From a virus, in the IMG/VR virus record IMGVR_UViG_3300045988_173323: a stretch of 64,000 nucleotides of DNA; one strand, written 5' to 3'. Position numbers and translations under genes: made by a program. Positions 43,275-57,902 of the stretch are shown here, in pieces. Position 1 is the first letter of the stretch; the number at the start of each line of letters is the position of its first letter. Under the pieces are notes generated by a model that worked only from the letters and a program-made list of their open reading frames with translations, was not told the DNA's origin and searched no databases.

Positions 43275-43310
43275 ATAAATATTATATAATAATTTTTTAT
43301 AAAATTCAAA
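43275..43310 (-). promoter_or_regulatory. SigmaA-type promoter for the Ro60-like gene
   Basis: Minus strand TTGAAT-N17-TATAAT (-35 at 43304-43309, -10 at 43281-43286), followed by the RBS AAAAGGAGATAATGATAC-ATG. Confidence 0.55.
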
Positions 43311-43382
43311 GCCCGCGGTTGGATTCGAACCAACGATCAGGGAGTTGCAGTCCCTAGCCTTAACCAACTGGACTACGCGGGC
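43310..43382 (-). tRNA. tRNA-Cys(GCA)
   Basis: Acceptor GCCCGCG/CGCGGGC, anticodon arm AGGGA-CTGCAAC-TCCCT, T-arm TTGGTTCGAATCCAA. Confidence 0.75.
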
Positions 43383-43491
43383 GTAACCGGCTTCCAAAAA
43401 AAAAAGCCTTAGTTACAAGAGACTCATTGTTCAACTTGAATTTTAAATAAATATAATAACCATACAATTTTCTTCTGCTGTTGGTCTCTTA

Positions 43492-43548
43492 AACCTTTAA
43501 ATAGGAGTCGAACCTATATTCTTTGTCTTACCAATTAGACGATTAAAG
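43492..43548 (-). ncRNA. tRNA-like mini-RNA lacking an anticodon arm; Y-RNA-like candidate
   Basis: Acceptor-like CCTTTAA/TTAAAGG, D-arm GTC-TAATTGGTAA-GAC, T-arm ATAGG-TTCGACT-CCTAT, and no anticodon arm (about 57 nt). It is 280 bp from the Ro60-like gene and next to a GC hairpin at 43553-43579. Confidence 0.35.
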
Positions 43549-43552
43549 GATA

Positions 43553-43587
43553 CGTCTGCGGCTTTCGCACATCCGCAGACTTTTATG
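43553..43587 (+). terminator. GC-rich hairpin + T-run (plus-strand terminator-like; on the minus strand it precedes the tRNA-like mini-RNA)
   Basis: GTCTGCGG-ctttcgcacat-CCGCAGAC followed by TTTTATGG. Confidence 0.4.
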
Positions 43588-43767
43588 GAAAGGGATTGAT
43601 AATGATACTAGACAACATCTCTATAAATAACCAACTTAGTATTTTATTATTGCTGTTGTTGTCTCTACTATTAAATCAATCTTATAAATTAAAATCATTA
43701 AAATCAAGACTCTATTTTGTTGGTGCCGCTATTATTAGTAGTAGTAACAAATTAATATTGCTGAATG

Positions 43768-43839
43768 TGAGTCTTTAAGCACTATGTGGGAATCGAACCC
43801 ACATCCTCTGGTTGGAAGCCAGAAATCCTAGCCTTTAAA
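43768..43839 (-). tRNA. tRNA-Gly(UCC)
   Basis: Acceptor GCACTAT/ATAGTGC, anticodon arm TCTGG-CTTCCAA-CCAGA, T-arm GTGGGTTCGATTCCCAC. Confidence 0.75.
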
Positions 43840-44023
43840 CGAATAGTGCAAATAACAAGATGCTTAAAAACATTTTTAGCCATTATAATAATTTTGTCTA
43901 CGTATTGCTGTTAGCATCTTTAATTTTCATTTGAATTTGAATAATAAAATTTACAATTTGTGCAACAATTCTTTTTCTTGGGATGTTACCAACCTCACCT
44001 TGAAGTATTTTGACTCCACCACT

Positions 44024-44096
44024 TGGAACTAGAGAGATTCGAACTCTCGACCCTCTGCTTGCAAGGCAGATGTTCTCCCAACTGAACTATAGCCCC
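44024..44096 (-). tRNA. tRNA-Ala(UGC), copy 1
   Basis: GGGGCTA acceptor with G3:U70, anticodon arm TCTGC-CTTGCAA-GCAGA, T-arm GAGAGTTCGAATCTCTC. Confidence 0.75.
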
Positions 44097-44424
44097 ATTT
44101 AATTTGGATTTTGTTTATTTGTTCCAAACATAACGATATTTTAACCGTCTATATAAATTACTGAGTTACTAAGTTACTCTTTTTAATTTTAGTTTTCTTA
44201 TTTTTCTCTTCTGCGTCAATATATGCCTTTATGCCCTCTTCAATTAAAGCTTCAAGTTTTAACTTTGGAGTATGCTTAATAAGCAAATCCGCTTTATGGA
44301 ATCTTCTGACTTTTTCAGCTCTTGTCTCAGTGTTACCAAACTCCAGTGCATTTGTTGCTACAAGTGTCCATCCTTTTGCCATTCTCTTTAACATATTCAA
44401 TCCTCTTTCTTTCTTTCTTTTGAT

Positions 44425-44465
44425 ATATTTATTATATCATATTTTTTTAAAAAAATCAATTTATT
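44425..44465 (-). promoter_or_regulatory. Repeated sigmaA-type promoter + purine-rich leader cassette (copy upstream of tRNA-Arg)
   Basis: Minus strand TTGATT (44454-44459) - 17 nt - TATAAT (44431-44436), then AAATATATCAAAAGAAAGAAAG. Confidence 0.55.
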
Positions 44466-44473
44466 TTTTTAAG

Positions 44474-55297: not shown

Positions 55298-55405
55298 AAA
55301 ATTAAAGTGCCGGCAAATGCCTAACCTTTAATTTATAAAAAATATAAATGACGAGTTCATAAAAAATGTGTGTTATCATCATACATTTTGGCTTTGTTAG
55401 CCAAA

Positions 55406-55480
55406 CGACTCTGACGGGACTCGAACCAGTGTTATTCCACTGTGACAGAGTGGTACCATAACCAACTAGGCGACAGAGCC
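55406..55480 (-). tRNA. tRNA-Asp(GUC)
   Basis: Acceptor GGCTCTG/CAGAGTC, anticodon arm CCACT-CTGTCAC-AGTGG, T-loop TTCGAGT. The T-stem is imperfect. Confidence 0.55.
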
Positions 55481-55549
55481 AAAACAAGATGGAATTATTT
55501 TTGCACTTAATATCCCCAATATTACGCAACATTGCTGTGTCCATCTTAA

Positions 55550-55631
55550 TTGGGGAGGTAGGACTCGAACCTACGACGTTTCTTTGTCACGGTTTTACAG
55601 ACCGCTACCCTCGCCGCTGGGTTACTCCCCA
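55550..55631 (-). tRNA. tRNA-Tyr(GUA), copy 2
   Basis: Acceptor TGGGGAG/CTCCCCA, anticodon arm GCGGT-CTGTAAA-ACCGT, long variable arm GACAAAGAAACGTC, T-arm GTAGGTTCGAGTCCTAC. Confidence 0.65.
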
Positions 55632-56351
55632 TCATTATTAAGTTGGACAGCTATCCTTTAGAAGACGATGCTTCTGGAGCCTTAATAGTACCCCAAGTAA
55701 TTTACCATTTCTACAAATTACCAAAGATTAGAACAATTTTCTCGTTTTGTTCATTGACGTCAGAATTTTCCGCTACGAGGTATCTGAAATATACCTTTAT
55801 TTTATGTATTTATTATAATATAATTTTTTCAAAAAATCAAATGTTATAATAAATATTTTATGATGCACTCCCAATCTAAAAAACCTGTGGTTTCCTAGGA
55901 AGGATTTTCACCTTCGAGTTCCCATCATAGTGGGCGGTAACTTCTGCATCTTTTCTTATGATATAATAATTATATCATAATTTTTTTAAAAAATCAAATT
56001 GTTTTAAACTTAGGAACAATTTTAACCCCTACCATGGTATCTAGGTCTATTTTTTTCAGCCAGGTTTAACCTAGTTTATTTTTTTCCTTCTAAGTACGCA
56101 GACATCTTTTAGTTCATTTAATTACTTACAGGCTAACTAAGTGAGGAATACGCACTTTCCGCAATCTCTAAACGCCTAGGTTTTTAAAGTACAAAACCCT
56201 AAACTCGAAATTTCCTAGCTTGTTTTCTGGCACAACCTTGGATTCATTCTTGCTAAAAAAGTTTAAGCCATATGTTTTTCTTTATTTCTTATGTATTTAT
56301 TATATCATAAATTTTTCAAAAAATCAATTTAAGATTTTTGTCATAACTTTT

Positions 56352-56675
56352 TTATTTACATCCTAAAAAATATCCATAATGACAAAGTAAATCTTCAATA
56401 TTAGACCTTCCAACAGGATTCATTGAATGACAAACAAAACCGTATAAAGGAATTTTATTCTCCACAATATACTTCGCAATATCGTATCCTGTTTTCTTTT
56501 GACCTAAGTCATGGTCTAAACTAATAAAAACGTTACCTTGACAACAATAAATCTTTAAAGCTTTAATTGCTTGTCTATAAGTTCTACAAACAACTTTTTC
56601 TTCACCCAACCACATTAAGTTCTTTGGAATAGGTCTTTCATCGTCAACCCAAATAAAAGTTTTAACTTTGCTCAT
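56352..56675 (-). CDS. Hypothetical protein (possible receiver/Rossmann-like fold)
   Basis: 107-aa ORF; WVDDERP...ISLDHDLG pattern. Confidence 0.3.
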   Translation of the reverse strand: MSKVKTFIWVDDERPIPKNLMWLGEEKVVCRTYRQAIKALKIYCCQGNVFISLDHDLGQKKTGYDIAKYIVENKIPLYGFVCHSMNPVGRSNIEDLLCHYGYFLGCK

Positions 56676-56742
56676 ATTTCATTCCCTCTCTTATTTCTTA
56701 TATAAATATTATATCATATTTTTTATAAAAAATCAAAAGAAA

Positions 56743-56819
56743 CAGACAGTTTAGGAATCGAACCTAAATCTAAATCTAAATTTTTGGAAAATTTTATGCT
56801 ACCATTGCACCAACTGCCC
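56743..56819 (-). tRNA. tRNA-Trp(CCA) with an expanded 9-nt variable loop containing a tandem ATTTAG hexamer
   Basis: Acceptor GGGCAGT/ACTGTCT, anticodon arm AAATT-TTCCAAA-AATTT, variable region AGATTTAGA, T-arm TTAGGTTCGATTCCTAA. Confidence 0.6.
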
Positions 56820-56829
56820 TCTTAACTAT

Positions 56830-57492
56830 TTAATACCAGCCATTAGCATCCCAAAAAGCTAACGCTGCGTCCCAACTTCCGTATCTTTCCGCCACATATT
56901 GCTCTGCAACTCGCTCTTGATTTTCTGCGGAATAATCTCCATTTAACATAGTGTATGTTAATTGGTATCTTCCTATATACTCTCCTGTTGGGCTAATAGC
57001 ATTATAATCGCCACCAGATTCTCTCTGAGCAATAATTTCTTTCGCAGAATTAGTATATTCATATACATACTCAACTACATTATCTTCTATAGATAAATCT
57101 ATATAATCTTGCTCTGTACTTAAATATTCGTTCCATGCAAAATATTGTTTACCATCTATTTCAATGATATCCCAACCATACTCTCCACTTATTCCAATTC
57201 TATGCACTTCAGTATTTGACTTTAATACCATTATTCGCTCTGAGTCGATAGAAGGAATATTTCGAATATTCAAATTTGCTGTAGTATATACTTCTTCATC
57301 TACTCTTTCAGATGAAAAAAGTACATACTGATTTTCTGAATCTACTATTTGAAAATCGTTATTTTCATCAACAGCAATAAGAACTGGCTCTGAATTAAAT
57401 TTATTTTGATATTCAACGTTTGCCGCGGAAACTGGCAAACTTAAGCTGAACATCATTCCGCCAATTATTAACACTTTTGTAAGATTTTTCAT
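56830..57492 (-). CDS. Secreted IsaA/SceD-like lytic transglycosylase (signal peptide + SLT-like domain)
   Basis: N-terminal signal peptide MKNLTKVLIIGGMMFSLSLPVSA. C-terminal AQRESGGDYNAISPTGEYIGRYQL...W matches the IsaA-type motif ESGGNYxAxNxxSGAxGKYQF. Confidence 0.55.
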   Translation of the reverse strand: MKNLTKVLIIGGMMFSLSLPVSAANVEYQNKFNSEPVLIAVDENNDFQIVDSENQYVLFSSERVDEEVYTTANLNIRNIPSIDSERIMVLKSNTEVHRIGISGEYGWDIIEIDGKQYFAWNEYLSTEQDYIDLSIEDNVVEYVYEYTNSAKEIIAQRESGGDYNAISPTGEYIGRYQLTYTMLNGDYSAENQERVAEQYVAERYGSWDAALAFWDANGWY

Positions 57493-57658
57493 TGTTTTCT
57501 CGCTTTCTTTTTAGTTTTTGATCCCTATAAAGAACAGTTTAAAAATAATTAAGAATCATTTTCAAATAAAAATTTTCAAATAAGAAAATTCTTTATAATA
57601 AGACCATAGGATCTCTTACTCTAAAATGAATTTTAAAGTAATTATTTCATTGTTACAA

Positions 57659-57736
57659 TGCGGAATCTGGGATTCGAACCCAGGACAAACATCGCTTATA
57701 AGGCGACCGCTCTAACCTTGACTGAGCTAATCCCGC
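57659..57736 (-). tRNA. tRNA-Ile(UAU)
   Basis: Acceptor GCGGGAT/ATTCCGC, D-arm TAGCTCAGTCAAGGTTAGAGC, anticodon arm GTCGC-CTTATAA-GCGAT, T-arm CTGGGTTCGAATCCCAG. Confidence 0.65.
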
Positions 57737-57902
57737 ATATCCCCAACTGAGTCTAGCCAATGCTCTTCTGTGGGGTAGTTGATAGCTTTTGCAGATTTCG
57801 CTGCAAAGGGAGTGCATCACTGGGCTTCAGAGGTGCGAATCTCCTCTACGCATTGAATTGGCTACTCTCCCGTCCCGCCCCTGCGTCGATACCTTATTTT
57901 AC

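What the first reader, a model, noticed from the sequence alone, without database searches (positions are those of the whole stretch)
43300..57750. Very large tRNA array (32 or more tRNAs) interleaved with small ORFs, promoters and degenerate tRNA-like elements
Anticodons read: Cys GCA; Gly UCC; Ala UGC x2; Arg UCU and ACG; Lys UUU; His GUG; Met CAU x2 (one initiator-like); Pro UGG; Ser UGA and GCU; Phe GAA; Leu CAA, UAA x2 and UAG; Ile GAU and UAU; Glu UUC and CUC; Tyr GUA x2; Gln UUG x2; Thr UGU; Asp GUC; Trp CCA. The set is biased toward A/U-ending codon readers, consistent with an AT-rich genome that supplements host tRNAs. Duplicates with divergent acceptor and D-arms suggest separate acquisitions.
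Basis: seen in the sequence. Interest (0 to 1): 0.55.

Follow-up and report, generated by a model that had tools for sequence, protein, structure and literature searches.

The report
Phage tRNA array with nested tRNA-shaped insert
A gut phage really does carry about 32 tRNA genes in one block, and hidden in that block are a giant GOLLD RNA, a Y-RNA-like element and a tRNA-Asn gene split by a small mobile insert that is itself folded like a tRNA, a kind of interruption I could not find described.

Summary
ARAGORN tRNA genes and Rfam 33, all on the minus strand between 43310 and 57737. The array lies in a ~135 kb AT-rich phage common in metagenomes and is cut into units by 16 near-consensus promoters.

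A divergent GOLLD RNA lies at 54139-54594. A YrlA-like element lies upstream of a Ro60-like gene. A 57-nt tRNA-like gene has no anticodon arm. A 33rd tRNA, tRNA-Asn(GUU), is interrupted in its anticodon loop by 151 nt (52761-52611).

A close relative has the same Asn gene uninterrupted. Other relatives carry the same insert with an HNH endonuclease gene inside it. Across at least four families whose junctions are fixed by intact orthologs or near-identical homologs, these inserts begin at base 1 of an acceptor-like stem and end at the discriminator or N-CCA. They also have a D-like and a T-like hairpin, with strong covariation. They are too small for group I introns and lack their splice-site rules.

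The array is a known kind of element. The tRNA-shaped inserts appear to be new. Whether and how they are removed from the RNA is untested. Excision by RNase P and RNase Z followed by ligation is my hypothesis.

The parts
43310..43382 (-). tRNA-Cys(GCA)
   Evidence: ARAGORN; Rfam 57.4 bits
43493..43549 (-). 57-nt free-standing tRNA-like gene without anticodon arm (7-bp acceptor, U8, D-arm, 7-nt linker, T-arm, N73)
   Evidence: Rfam tRNA 41.4 bits; sequence read; 7/7 acceptor pairs in own scan; similar 58-68 nt elements in relatives' arrays
43778..43849 (-). tRNA-Gly(UCC)
44023..44097 (-). tRNA-Ala(UGC) copy 1; replaced by tRNA-Val(UAC) between the same flanks in strains L087/L095/L096
44473..44547 (-). 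tRNA-Arg(UCU)
44648..44721 (-). tRNA-Arg(ACG)
45852..45923 (-). degenerate tRNA-like (Glu-like body, broken acceptor stem)
   Evidence: Rfam tRNA 26.8 bits, below gathering score
45937..46050 (-). YrlA-like (Y RNA-like) element: T-arm, hairpin and D-arm modules; basal Ro-binding stem poorly matched
   Evidence: Rfam RF02553 40 bits, gathering score 69, E 6.6e-6 in 18 kb and 1.5e-7 locally; a similar sub-threshold hit in relative L003
46098..46171 (-). tRNA-Lys(UUU)
46419..46491 (-). tRNA-His(GUG)
46495..46565 (-). tRNA with CAU anticodon (Met or Ile2 type), atypical D-arm
   Evidence: (43.4 bits)
46568..46643 (-). tRNA-Pro(UGG) copy 1
47805..47891 (-). tRNA-Ser(UGA); its ortholog in strains L093/L094 is interrupted by a PD-(D/E)XK endonuclease ORF
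48433..48522 (-). tRNA-Ser(GCU)
48526..48598 (-). tRNA-Phe(GAA)
48808..48882 (-). tRNA-Leu(UAG) copy 1 (short variable arm)
49028..49106 (-). tRNA-Leu(CAA)
49110..49196 (-). tRNA-Leu(UAA) copy 1
49282..49365 (-). tRNA-Leu(UAA) copy 2
49695..49768 (-). tRNA-Ile(GAU)
50233..50305 (-). tRNA with CAU anticodon, initiator-like (A11:U24)
50647..50719 (-). tRNA-Glu(UUC)-like chimera, probably a pseudogene (mismatched acceptor; 41-nt exact repeat with 51043-51083)
   Evidence: Rfam 35.2 bits; structure; repeat D14
51063..51136 (-). tRNA-Glu(UUC)
51204..51277 (-). tRNA-Glu(CUC)
51504..51587 (-). tRNA-Tyr(GUA) copy 1
   Evidence: 31.8 bits
52170..52241 (-). tRNA-Gln(UUG) copy 1
52762..52795 (-). tRNA-Asn(GUU) 5' part (acceptor, D-arm, anticodon stem, CUGU)
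   Evidence: uninterrupted ortholog L092 238-308
52611..52761 (-). 151-nt tRNA-shaped insert in the anticodon loop of tRNA-Asn (position 35/36). It has an acceptor-like stem (nt 1-7 with 144-150), U8, a D-like hairpin GCAU-AAGUA-AUGC, a remnant of an HNH endonuclease C-terminus, a T-like hairpin UUGAG-UUCAAAU-CUCAA, and N73 = U151.
52573..52610 (-). tRNA-Asn(GUU) 3' part (UAA, anticodon stem, T-arm, acceptor)
53540..53619 (-). tRNA-Leu(UAG) copy 2
53626..53701 (-). degenerate tRNA-like element (aberrant anticodon arm)
   Evidence: Rfam tRNA 23.1 bits; ARAGORN at relaxed threshold
53737..53808 (-). tRNA-Pro(UGG) copy 2
54027..54098 (-). tRNA-Thr(UGU)
54139..54594 (-). GOLLD RNA, conserved 3' domain (full-length match to Rfam model positions 1-416)
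   Evidence: RF02032 104.2 bits, gathering score 150, E 7.6e-27 / 4.7e-28; fold z-score -5.3; absent from strain L096
54595..54965 (-). probable variable 5' domain of GOLLD (ORF-free, between tRNA-Gln and the conserved domain)
   Evidence: inference from position and from the published GOLLD layout (PMC12286853); no ORF
54966..55037 (-). tRNA-Gln(UUG) copy 2
55223..55297 (-). tRNA-Ala(UGC) copy 2
55405..55481 (-). tRNA-Asp(GUC)
55550..55631 (-). tRNA-Tyr(GUA) copy 2
56743..56819 (-). tRNA-Trp(CCA)
57658..57737 (-). tRNA-Ile(UAU)
   Evidence: 60.9 bits
43281..43309 (-). promoter TTGAAT-17-TATAAT (upstream of the Ro60-like gene)
44431..44459 (-). promoter, extended -10
46059..46087 (-). promoter (directly upstream of the YrlA-like element)
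46732..46760 (-). promoter
48404..48432 (-). promoter
49801..49829 (-). promoter
50944..50972 (-). promoter
51159..51187 (-). promoter
52454..52482 (-). promoter
52889..52917 (-). promoter upstream of the split tRNA-Asn; one endpoint of the 3-kb deletion in strain L096
55128..55156 (-). promoter upstream of tRNA-Gln, GOLLD and tRNA-Thr
55812..55840 (-). promoter
55969..55997 (-). promoter; other endpoint of the L096 deletion
56299..56327 (-). promoter
56708..56736 (-). promoter upstream of the cREC gene
57955..57983 (-). promoter upstream of tRNA-Ile(UAU)
56352..56675 (-). cREC (cyclic-phosphate processing receiver) domain protein, 107 aa
   Evidence: Pfam PF20274 78 bits; identical protein on dozens of 130-137 kb contigs
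56830..57492 (-). 220-aa secreted-type protein with a weak SH3_3 match
45304..45735 (-). two adjacent ORFs (53 + 85 aa) that together resemble a SocA/Panacea antitoxin domain
   Evidence: Pfam PF13274 26.8 bits on the 85-aa part
51593..52134 (-). three small ORFs (61 aa C2H2-like zinc finger; 52 + 60 aa that form one 116-aa ORF in other strains)
46761..47751 (-). three small ORFs (94, 125, 77 aa) of unknown function, conserved in close relatives
48028..48372 (-). 114-aa ORF, weak Rv2632c-like match
41733..43214 (-). Ro60-like protein (DUF2828 + DUF7788/vWA) directly downstream of the array
   Evidence: Pfam; phrog_850 'RNA-binding protein'; same-strand tRNA array upstream in most of 80 related loci; Foldseek top 7 PDB hits all Ro60/TROVE

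Best explanation
The interval is a modular, multi-promoter tRNA gene array of a ~135 kb AT-rich phage. The phage probably infects a Bacillota host in the human gut.

The array encodes a near-complete minimal decoding set: 31 apparently intact tRNAs, one chimeric Glu pseudogene and an interrupted Asn. It is co-transcribed with structured non-coding RNAs (a GOLLD RNA, a YrlA-like RNA and an armless tRNA-like RNA). It sits next to a Ro60-like gene and, about 14-17 kb further along the same strand (26091-30369), an RNA heal-and-seal kit.

Its most likely job is to keep translation of phage mRNAs going, both by matching phage codon usage and by replacing or repairing tRNAs that the host depletes or cleaves. 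RNase P and RNase Z processing of the flanking tRNAs would also release the embedded RNAs with defined ends.

The array is also a landing pad for homing endonucleases. In this phage the tRNA-Asn(GUU) gene carries the endonuclease-less, 151-nt form of a mobile insert that is folded like a tRNA.

I propose, as inference, that this shape lets the cell's tRNA end-processing enzymes cut the insert out exactly. RNase P would cut 5' of insert base 1, leaving a 3'-OH on the 5' half. RNase Z would cut after the discriminator, leaving a 5'-phosphate on the 3' half. The nick in the anticodon loop could then be sealed by an ATP-dependent RNA ligase such as the one this phage encodes.

Shown: the genes, the promoters, the RNA family matches, the alleles with and without the insert, and the tRNA-like fold with covariation.

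Inferred: transcription units, biological role, and any removal of the insert from RNA.

The confidence of 0.8 refers to the description of what is there: the array, the embedded RNAs, and the interrupted Asn with a mobile tRNA-shaped insert. The proposed excision-and-ligation step on its own I rate at about 0.3.
For: - tRNA calls agree between two programs.
- 16 of 28 exact consensus promoters lie in the array, all on the coding strand, with 0.6 expected by chance.
- Codon usage matches the set, with 81% of codons covered.
- GOLLD matches the full Rfam model at E 7.6e-27. RNAs of the related ROOL class and a tmRNA occur in relatives' arrays. GOLLD and ROOL are known to lie near phage tRNA islands (PMC12286853).
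- A YrlA-like hit lies upstream of a Ro60-like gene. The tRNA array next to that gene is conserved in most of 80 related loci.
- The window encodes a kinase, phosphoesterases, an RNA ligase, a nucleotidyltransferase and cREC. This matches the published phage RNA-repair gene set (PMC7824862).
- Splicing tRNA-Asn in silico gives a perfect tRNA. L092 has the intact ortholog with two compensatory anticodon-stem changes. L096, L097, L098 and L100 carry the same insert. L101 and L119 carry it with an HNH ORF.
- Insert junctions fixed by intact orthologs (Asn, Lys, Arg) or by near-identical homologs (Gln) coincide with base 1 and with N73 or N73-CCA of a tRNA-like fold.
- 9 of 44 distinct ARAGORN 'introns' pass the tRNA-shape test, against 1 of 20,000 random windows.
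- 96% of helix cells are paired, 12 of 16 pairs show double changes, and 0 of 2,000 shuffles reach that.
Against: - No expression or RNA-end data exist, so promoters, co-transcription and any excision or ligation are inferred.
- The host is not identified, so codon supplementation cannot be compared with a host tRNA pool.
- GOLLD and YrlA scores are below Rfam's gathering thresholds, and the YrlA-like element lacks the conserved Ro-binding stem.
- tRNA-Asn is absent from some strains (L086, L087, L099), so it is dispensable, and the interrupted copy could simply be dead. One HNH-bearing copy (L102) has a mismatched acceptor stem.
- In the Asn-type inserts, pair 1-72 is a mismatch (G.A or A.A).
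- For inserts ending in CCA, cleavage right after CCA is not the usual RNase Z site in Bacillota.
- The specificity of the phage ligase is unknown.
- The structural alignment behind the covariation count was made by hand around the proposed fold.
Confidence: 0.8

Rival explanations
1. The interrupted tRNA-Asn is a dead gene. A homing-endonuclease cassette inserted into the palindromic anticodon stem-loop DNA of a dispensable tRNA gene. The endonuclease ORF was later deleted and the halves have not yet decayed. The tRNA-like ends of the cassette serve the cassette. They allow release and stabilisation of the endonuclease mRNA from a long pre-tRNA transcript, in a tmRNA-like layout. They do not serve restoration of the host tRNA.
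For: - tRNA-Asn is missing from strains L086, L087 and L099, so the phage tolerates its loss.
- L102's copy has three acceptor mismatches.
- Other insert classes in relatives are bare PD-(D/E)XK ORFs with no room for any RNA machinery.
- Homing endonucleases come and go between near-identical strains.
Against: - Both halves are perfect in the window, in four other strains and in L101.
- The anticodon stem differs from the intact allele only by compensatory pairs.
- Insert ends coincide to the nucleotide with tRNA-like position 1 and N73 or CCA in independent families inserted in Asn, Lys, Arg and Gln tRNAs. mRNA release alone does not require this.
- The endonuclease-less 112-151 nt forms keep the fold.
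Confidence: 0.35
2. The insert is a self-splicing group I intron, as in the tRNA-Asn(GUU) 35/36 introns with HNH genes recently described in Patescibacteria.
For: - It shares the same tRNA, the same position (35/36) and the same endonuclease family (PMC13011429).
- Relatives' arrays do contain classic-looking group I introns in tRNA-Leu(UAA) and tRNA-Phe, with a 5' exon ending in U and an intron ending in G.
- Rfam's group I model misses even those, so its silence says nothing.
Against: - The non-coding RNA is only 71-151 nt, against 184-894 nt for bacterial tRNA group I introns. Even the HNH-bearing forms have only ~120 nt outside the ORF.
- With junctions fixed by intact orthologs, the last insert base is U, A or C, never the required G. 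The last 5'-exon base is C in the Arg case.
- The conserved helices are tRNA-like, not P1-P9.
Confidence: 0.05
3. The array exists mainly as a counter-defence. It supplies tRNAs that resist or replace those cleaved by host anticodon nucleases. The heal-and-seal enzymes, the Ro60-like protein and the Y-like RNA act in repair and quality control. Codon matching is secondary.
For: - A full kinase, phosphoesterase, ligase, nucleotidyltransferase and cREC set lies in the same window.
- This gene set has been interpreted this way in large phages (PMC7824862).
- Duplicated isoacceptors have very different sequences, at 57-80% identity.
Against: - The set also fits phage codon usage well.
- No host nuclease is known here, and the two roles are not exclusive.
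Confidence: 0.4

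Closest known systems
Large tRNA gene arrays of big phages (T4/T5-like, Herelleviridae, jumbo phages, mycobacteriophages)
   Same: Tens of tRNA genes lie on one strand, interspersed with small ORFs and homing endonuclease genes. The phage genome is AT-rich, the decoding set is near-complete, and RNA ligase and kinase genes are associated (PMC7824862).
   Different: Promoter density is unusually high, at 16 consensus promoters in 14.7 kb. Strain-level turnover by recombination between promoters and between T-arms is directly visible.
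GOLLD RNA (Rfam RF02032)
   Same: It matches the conserved 3' domain over the full model. It lies in a phage tRNA island between two tRNAs, with an ORF-free ~370 nt stretch upstream where the variable 5' domain is expected.
   Different: Its score of 104 bits is below Rfam's gathering score of 150, so it is a divergent member. It is present or absent between otherwise near-identical strains.
Ro60 with YrlA (bacterial and phage Y RNA systems)
   Same: A ring-protein-like HEAT + vWA protein has Ro60/TROVE structures as its best structural matches. An RNA with YrlA-like T-arm and D-arm modules lies nearby on the same strand (PMC4201824, PMC12135203).
   Different: The protein belongs to DUF2828/DUF7788 rather than Pfam TROVE, and shows no sequence-level match to solved Ro60. 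The YrlA-like RNA lacks the conserved CGAA stem and lies 2.7 kb from the gene, inside a tRNA array.
Group I introns in bacterial tRNA anticodon loops, especially tRNA-Asn(GUU) 35/36 introns with HNH genes (PMC13011429)
   Same: They share the same gene, the same insertion position, the same endonuclease family, alleles with and without the insert, and being missed by standard tRNA finders.
   Different: The insert is far too small (151 nt here; 71-121 nt in relatives). It has no terminal G, and the 5' exon does not always end in U. Its conserved fold is a tRNA-like acceptor, D and T structure rather than a ribozyme core.
tmRNA and other tRNA-mimic RNAs processed by RNase P and RNase Z (YrlA, mascRNA-type elements)
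   Same: An acceptor plus T-arm domain is formed by the two ends of the RNA, with other sequence (here an ORF or its remnant) in between. Some members end in N-CCA.
   Different: These units are nested inside the anticodon loop of another tRNA gene. They carry a homing endonuclease gene, not a tag-peptide frame.

Membership tests
tRNA genes (Rfam RF00005) | Cloverleaf with a score at or above the curated threshold in two independent programs | tested here: met
   32 of 32 ARAGORN calls are also at or above Rfam's gathering score. One of them (50647-50719) has a mismatched acceptor and is probably a pseudogene.
GOLLD RNA (RF02032) | Match to the conserved 3' domain at Rfam's gathering score (150 bits) | tested here: not met
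   104.2 bits. However, the match covers model positions 1-416 end to end at E 7.6e-27. I treat it as a divergent GOLLD.
GOLLD RNA (RF02032) | Genomic setting in a phage or prophage next to tRNA genes | tested here: met
   It lies between tRNA-Gln and tRNA-Thr in a phage array. The setting is as described in PMC12286853.
GOLLD RNA (RF02032) | Homo-oligomeric nanocage assembly | not testable with these tools
   Needs cryo-EM or biochemistry.
YrlA / bacterial Y RNA (RF02553) | Match at the gathering score (69 bits), including the basal Ro-binding stem with the GNCGAA motif | tested here: not met
   40 bits. The T-arm, hairpin and D-arm modules match. The second stem is marked non-pairing, and GCACAU stands where GCGAAU is expected.
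YrlA / bacterial Y RNA (RF02553) | Encoded near a Ro60 ortholog | tested here: met
   It lies 2.7 kb upstream of the Ro60-like gene on the same strand.
Ro60 / TROVE proteins | HEAT-repeat ring plus vWA domain fold | tested here: inconclusive
   The AlphaFold model has mean pLDDT 63. The Foldseek top 7 PDB hits are all Ro60/TROVE with full-length alignments (E 5e-6 to 3e-4), but TM-scores are ~0.25. There is no sequence-level hit to solved Ro60. Pfam places it in DUF2828/DUF7788.
Group I introns in tRNA genes | 5' exon ends in U paired with G, intron ends in G (omega-G) | tested here: not met
   Junctions fixed by intact orthologs give insert 3' ends of U, A or C and a 5' exon ending in C for Arg.
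Group I introns in tRNA genes | Catalytic core P3-P9, length of roughly 180 nt or more | tested here: not met
   Non-coding RNA is 71-151 nt. There is no Rfam hit, although Rfam also misses the classic-looking introns of relatives.
Mobile (homing) intervening sequences | Alleles with and without the insert at the same site, and a homing endonuclease ORF in some copies | tested here: met
   L092 is intact, the window is interrupted, and L101 and L119 carry an HNH ORF in the same insert. Actual homing was not tested.
tRNA-like (RNase P / RNase Z substrate) structures | 7-bp acceptor stem stacked on a 5-bp T-stem with a T-loop, U8 and a D-like hairpin | tested here: met
   Covariation count: 134/140 cells paired, 12/16 pairs with double changes, 0/2,000 shuffles reaching that. 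Shape test: 9 of 44 inserts against 1 of 20,000 random windows.
tRNA-like (RNase P / RNase Z substrate) structures | Actual cleavage by RNase P and RNase Z at the predicted sites | not testable with these tools
   Needs enzymology or RNA-end mapping.

The most novel reading that the evidence does not exclude
Phage tRNA genes harbour a previously unrecognised class of intervening sequence. These are mobile, homing-endonuclease-bearing (or endonuclease-less) units that are exact tRNA mimics nested in the anticodon loop of a host tRNA. They are removed neither by self-splicing nor by a splicing endonuclease. Instead, the ordinary tRNA end-processing enzymes RNase P and RNase Z cut them out, and a phage ATP-dependent RNA ligase seals the resulting 3'-OH / 5'-phosphate nick. 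This would be a third, protein-and-RNase-P-dependent route of tRNA splicing. It would also give phage 'tRNA repair' ligases a second job.
Probability: 0.3. Interest if true: 0.9.

Novelty: new variant of a known kind. Interest (0 to 1): 0.68.

Why it matters
Large phage tRNA arrays are well known, so the array itself adds a well-documented example with strain-level evidence of how such arrays are built and rebuilt.

What could matter more is the tRNA-shaped insert. If it is spliced, bacteria and their viruses would have a tRNA splicing route that depends only on universal tRNA-processing enzymes plus a ligase. That would explain how homing endonucleases can invade tRNA genes without a ribozyme. 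It would also give a new reason for phages to carry RNA ligases.

On the practical side, tRNA finders miss or mis-assign such genes. Here Asn was missed, and Lys, Arg-UCU and Gln were called Thr, Arg-UCG and Glu. Phage tRNA repertoires in metagenomes are therefore being miscounted.

The locus also offers a natural system in which GOLLD is present or absent between near-identical phages. That could help find its function.

Tried and rejected
- **Nearest deposited phage.** Megablast of the array against 50,697 phage records gave only tRNA-Met-sized hits, so no deposited close relative exists. Relatives came from IMG/VR and ENA contigs instead.
- **Hammerhead ribozyme in the insert.** The CUGAUGAG...GAAA motif in the insert has no stem II and no Rfam hit. 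The motif is the remnant of the endonuclease C-terminus (TDEQW).
- **Archaeal bulge-helix-bulge motif at the junctions.** I did not find one on reading the sequence.
- **RNase III-type staggered cut.** I considered this for the bare PD-(D/E)XK inserts. The geometry gives a 3-nt rather than a 2-nt overhang, so I did not pursue it.
- **The 57-nt armless element as the conserved RNA partner of the Ro60-like protein.** Similar elements occur in relatives' arrays but not at a fixed place near that gene.
- **More structured RNAs in the ORF-poor gaps.** Fold z-scores for 52242-52450, 52920-53539 and 55632-56350 showed nothing beyond hairpins formed by the palindromic promoter spacers.
- **Rfam classification of relatives' inserts.** There was no group I call even for the classic-looking Leu(UAA) introns, so the test is uninformative.
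- **Pattern scans for more Asn-type inserts in IMG/VR.** The first pattern returned only the four already known. A looser pattern added L111, L119 and L149.
- **Substitution pattern among insert-carrying strains.** There are only two differences, too few to test constraint.
- **Boundary of the 71-nt L041 insert.** It could not be fixed because no intact ortholog was found.

Full report

Yes. ARAGORN reports 32 tRNA genes in the window. All lie on the minus strand between 43310 and 57737. Rfam's tRNA model reports the same 32 at or above its gathering score, plus a 57-nt hit at 43493-43549.

The programs add a second Pro(UGG), a second Leu(UAG) and a second Glu(UUC).

The window is 26-37% G+C and almost all genes are on the minus strand. 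Its proteins include topoisomerase II subunits, a DnaB-like helicase, a RecJ-like exonuclease, DNA and RNA ligases, PhoH and an endolysin, which mark it as a large tailed phage.

No deposited phage is close at the DNA level. However, the same phage is common in metagenome assemblies. Locus L097, from a 135,403-bp ENA contig, is 100% identical to the window over 11.7 kb. The cREC protein of the array occurs unchanged on dozens of 130-137 kb contigs.

**2. Anatomy of the array**

Promoters. The pattern TTGAWW-N17-TATAAT occurs 28 times in the window, always on the minus strand, against 0.6 expected from shuffles. Sixteen of these sites fall in the 14.7-kb array. Most have an extended -10 TG and share about 50 nt of flanking sequence.

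Small ORFs lie between tRNA groups:
- a cREC (cyclic-phosphate processing receiver) protein (56352-56675);
- a 220-aa protein with a weak SH3 match;
- a SocA/Panacea-like domain split over two ORFs;
- a C2H2-like zinc-finger ORF;
- several ORFs with no family match.

None of the tRNA genes encodes CCA.

Duplicated isoacceptors are only 57-80% identical. One 'Glu(UUC)' (50647-50719) is a chimera with a mismatched acceptor stem. It shares a 41-nt exact repeat with the neighbouring Glu gene.

**3. Non-tRNA RNAs inside the array**

At a permissive threshold Rfam reports two further families.

GOLLD. It matches at 54139-54594 over the whole model (positions 1-416). The score is 104 bits and the E-value 7.6e-27, which is below the curators' 150-bit cut-off. 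About 370 nt of ORF-free sequence separates it from tRNA-Gln upstream, and tRNA-Thr follows 40 nt downstream. That is the published layout: a conserved 3' domain, a variable 5' domain, and a phage tRNA island (PMC12286853).

Relatives' arrays contain ROOL RNAs at over 300 bits and a tmRNA. Ornate RNAs in the array are therefore a feature of the clade.

YrlA-like element. It lies at 45937-46050, with 40 bits and an E-value of 6.6e-6. It has the T-arm, hairpin and D-arm order of bacterial Y RNAs but lacks the conserved basal stem.

The Ro60-like gene. The gene directly downstream of the array (41733-43214) matches DUF2828 and DUF7788/vWA and phrog_850, 'RNA-binding protein'. Sequence searches against solved structures find no Ro60.

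A structure model of moderate quality (pLDDT 63) has Ro60/TROVE proteins as its seven best matches among 350,000 PDB chains. These include the Thermus phage Ro60 homolog.

In most of 80 related viral loci, a same-strand tRNA array lies directly upstream of this gene.

RNA repair genes. The window also encodes a polynucleotide kinase, three phosphoesterases, an ATP-dependent RNA ligase and a Pol-beta-type nucleotidyltransferase. Together with cREC and the Ro-like protein, this is the RNA-repair gene set described for large phages (PMC7824862).

**4. The missing Asn**

Asn and Val are the only amino acids with no tRNA call.

With introns allowed, ARAGORN proposes a tRNA at 52573-52795 interrupted by about 151 nt. 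Joining 52795-52762 to 52610-52573 gives a perfect 72-nt tRNA-Asn(GUU).

The decisive control is L092, a close relative whose Ro-like protein is 95% identical. At the same place, with the same flanks, it has an uninterrupted tRNA-Asn(GUU). Its acceptor and D-arms are identical to the window's and its T-arm differs by one loop base. Its anticodon stem differs from the window's by two compensatory base-pair changes.

So the window carries the insert-bearing allele of a real gene. The mature loop is CUGUUAA and the insert sits at 35/36.

The same 150-151-nt insert is present in strains L096, L097, L098 and L100. In L101/L103, L102 and L119, homologous inserts of about 740 nt contain an HNH endonuclease ORF with a zinc ribbon and a C-terminal helix-turn-helix. 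The window's insert retains the last codons of that ORF.

Val is absent for a different reason. Strains L087, L095 and L096 have a tRNA-Val(UAC) between the same flanks where the window has its first tRNA-Ala.

**5. What the insert is**

Related arrays contain three kinds of anticodon-loop inserts:
- Classic group-I-like introns in Leu(UAA) and Phe tRNAs.
- Inserts of about 470 nt that are almost entirely a PD-(D/E)XK homing endonuclease ORF (PF11645, 104 bits).
- The window's kind.

For the window's kind, ARAGORN's splice boundaries proved to be off by one or two bases. Intact orthologs correct them:
- The 'Thr' of L061 is tRNA-Lys(UUU).
- The 'Arg-UCG' of L146 is tRNA-Arg(UCU).
- The 'Glu' of L058/L061/L062 is tRNA-Gln(UUG), judged from near-identical intact Gln tRNAs.

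With the corrected junctions, every insert has the same layout:
- It starts at the first base of a 7-bp helix. The other strand of that helix directly follows a 5-bp stem with a T-loop-like 7-nt loop.
- Base 8 is U.
- A 4-bp hairpin with loop AAGUA starts at base 10.
- It ends at the discriminator position (Asn type, one Lys type) or at N-CCA / N-CCU (Lys, Arg and Gln types).

In other words, each insert is a tRNA-shaped unit. The endonuclease ORF, or its remnant, sits where the anticodon and variable arms would be.

Two tests support this. Nine of 44 distinct ARAGORN 'introns' pass a strict shape test, against 1 of 20,000 random windows. In a hand-made structural alignment of nine nested members, 134 of 140 helix cells pair, 12 of 16 pairs show compensatory double changes, and none of 2,000 shuffles reaches the observed pairing.

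A scan of the window's array for such units finds the known tRNAs plus only two others: the 151-nt insert and the free-standing 57-nt armless element at 43549-43493. Similar 58-68-nt armless elements occur sporadically in relatives' arrays.

**6. How it may work**

Group I self-splicing is unlikely. The non-coding RNA is 71-151 nt, against 184-894 nt for bacterial tRNA group I introns (PMC13011429). The inserts do not end in G. One 5' exon ends in C.

Because the insert ends coincide with the two sites at which RNase P and RNase Z cut any tRNA, I propose that these enzymes excise it. That would leave a 3'-OH / 5'-phosphate nick in the anticodon loop of a tRNA still held together by its stems. 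Such a nick is a substrate for ATP-dependent RNA ligases such as the one encoded at 27947-29191.

This is inference, and there are weak points:
- Pair 1-72 is mismatched in the Asn type.
- Cutting after CCA is not typical of RNase Z in Bacillota.
- The ligase's specificity is unknown.

The main rival is that the interrupted genes are simply dead and that the tRNA-like ends only release and stabilise the endonuclease mRNA. In favour of the rival, tRNA-Asn is missing from some strains and one copy (L102) has a damaged acceptor stem. Against it are the intact halves in six contigs, the compensatory anticodon-stem changes, and the to-the-nucleotide boundaries in independent families.

I put splicing by this route at about 0.3, a dead gene or mRNA-release role at about 0.35, group I self-splicing at about 0.05, and other mechanisms at the remainder.

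**7. What the array is for**

Phage codons end in A or T 79% of the time. The tRNA set is a near-minimal complete set covering 81% of codons by standard wobble. That fits codon supplementation.

The surrounding heal-and-seal genes, the Ro-like/Y-like pair and the sequence-divergent duplicates fit a counter-defence role against tRNA-targeting host systems equally well.

The two roles are compatible, and neither was tested because the host is unknown. The best protein matches are about 40% identical, to human faecal phage contigs and to phages of Listeria, Enterococcus and Staphylococcus. The promoters are of the Gram-positive extended -10 type. A Bacillota host is therefore likely.

**8. Dynamics**

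Near-identical strains differ by whole modules. L096 lacks 55951-52917, which holds GOLLD and eight tRNAs, through recombination between two promoter repeats. L095 lacks 53542-50255 through recombination between two tRNA T-arms. L099 replaces the Asn region.

Homing endonuclease genes (GIY-YIG, PD-(D/E)XK) are present in some strains and absent in the window.

**9. Verdict**

The array, GOLLD, and Ro-like plus Y-like elements are known kinds of things found together before.

The tRNA-shaped, endonuclease-associated inserts in anticodon loops are the novel element. The window holds one example. I found no description of them in the searchable literature. Their processing remains to be shown.

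Noticed in passing
window 30725-41103: Downstream of the Ro60-like gene lies a gene set reminiscent of eukaryotic vault/Ro particles. It includes an 814-aa protein whose near-identical counterpart in L086/L087 (829 aa as called) carries Pfam marks Vault_3 and MVP_shoulder (major vault protein). It also includes a MoxR-type AAA_5 ATPase, DUF7192, a Band_7/flotillin protein, a Pol-beta nucleotidyltransferase and a phosphatase.
   Followed up: partly
window 26091-30369: A complete RNA heal-and-seal kit: phosphoesterase (26091-26627), polynucleotide kinase (26637-27128), DRB0094-like ATP-dependent RNA ligase (27947-29191) and metallophosphoesterase (29566-30369).
   Followed up: partly
window 45304-45735: A SocA/Panacea-type antitoxin domain appears split over two adjacent ORFs (53 and 85 aa). 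This is either a frameshifted pseudogene or a two-part gene.
   Followed up: no
window 51593-51944: Two ORFs of 60 and 52 aa correspond to a single 116-aa ORF in strains L086, L087 and L098. The gene is disrupted in the window and in the identical L097.
   Followed up: no
window 44023-44097 versus L087 9113-9187: A genuine tRNA-Val(UAC) occupies, between identical flanks and with an identical anticodon stem, the slot that holds tRNA-Ala(UGC) in the window. This is a cassette-like swap of tRNA identity between strains.
   Followed up: partly
L093 6507-7261 and L094 (ortholog of window 47805-47891): In these strains the tRNA-Ser(UGA) gene is interrupted by a 210-aa PD-(D/E)XK + NUMOD1 endonuclease ORF with almost no flanking non-coding RNA. 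I could not place the exact junction.
   Followed up: partly
L024 5651-6198, L041 6031-6579, L040 4946-5503 and others: A class of ~465-490-nt anticodon-loop inserts in Asp, Ser, Tyr, Phe, Thr, Ala and Asn tRNAs (isotypes as called by ARAGORN, whose intron-mode anticodon assignments proved unreliable elsewhere in this work) consists almost entirely of a PF11645 PD-(D/E)XK homing endonuclease ORF with short inverted-repeat termini. There is no room for a ribozyme, so these tRNAs are either dead or removed by an unknown route.
   Followed up: partly
window 52920-53539: An ORF-poor 600-nt stretch holds an orphan T-arm (53215-53190) and a motif (GAGAATAGTAAGTT, ~53312) resembling the 5' end of the tRNA-shaped inserts. 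It is 82-91% identical to L023 only. It shows no significant fold stability. It may be debris of an older insert.
   Followed up: partly
L093 1532-1607 (ortholog of window 55223-55297): The second tRNA-Ala has an extra A in the anticodon loop (8-nt loop) in this strain. It is either a pseudogene or a frameshift-suppressor-like tRNA.
   Followed up: no
L080 5570-5871; L003, L004, L024, L080: Related arrays carry a tmRNA gene (93 bits) and ROOL RNAs (302-341 bits). The window has GOLLD instead.
   Followed up: no
L041 4076-4223: A 71-nt ORF-less, anticodon-armless tRNA-shaped insert ending in G-CCA is nested in a tRNA. That tRNA reads as Ile(UAU) under the tRNA-shaped boundary or as Trp(CCA) under ARAGORN's boundary. 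No intact ortholog was available to decide.
   Followed up: partly
window 57658-57737: A tRNA-Ile with a UAU anticodon, which is uncommon in bacteria (they usually read AUA with a modified CAU tRNA). It matches the 23% share of AUA among the phage's Ile codons.
   Followed up: no
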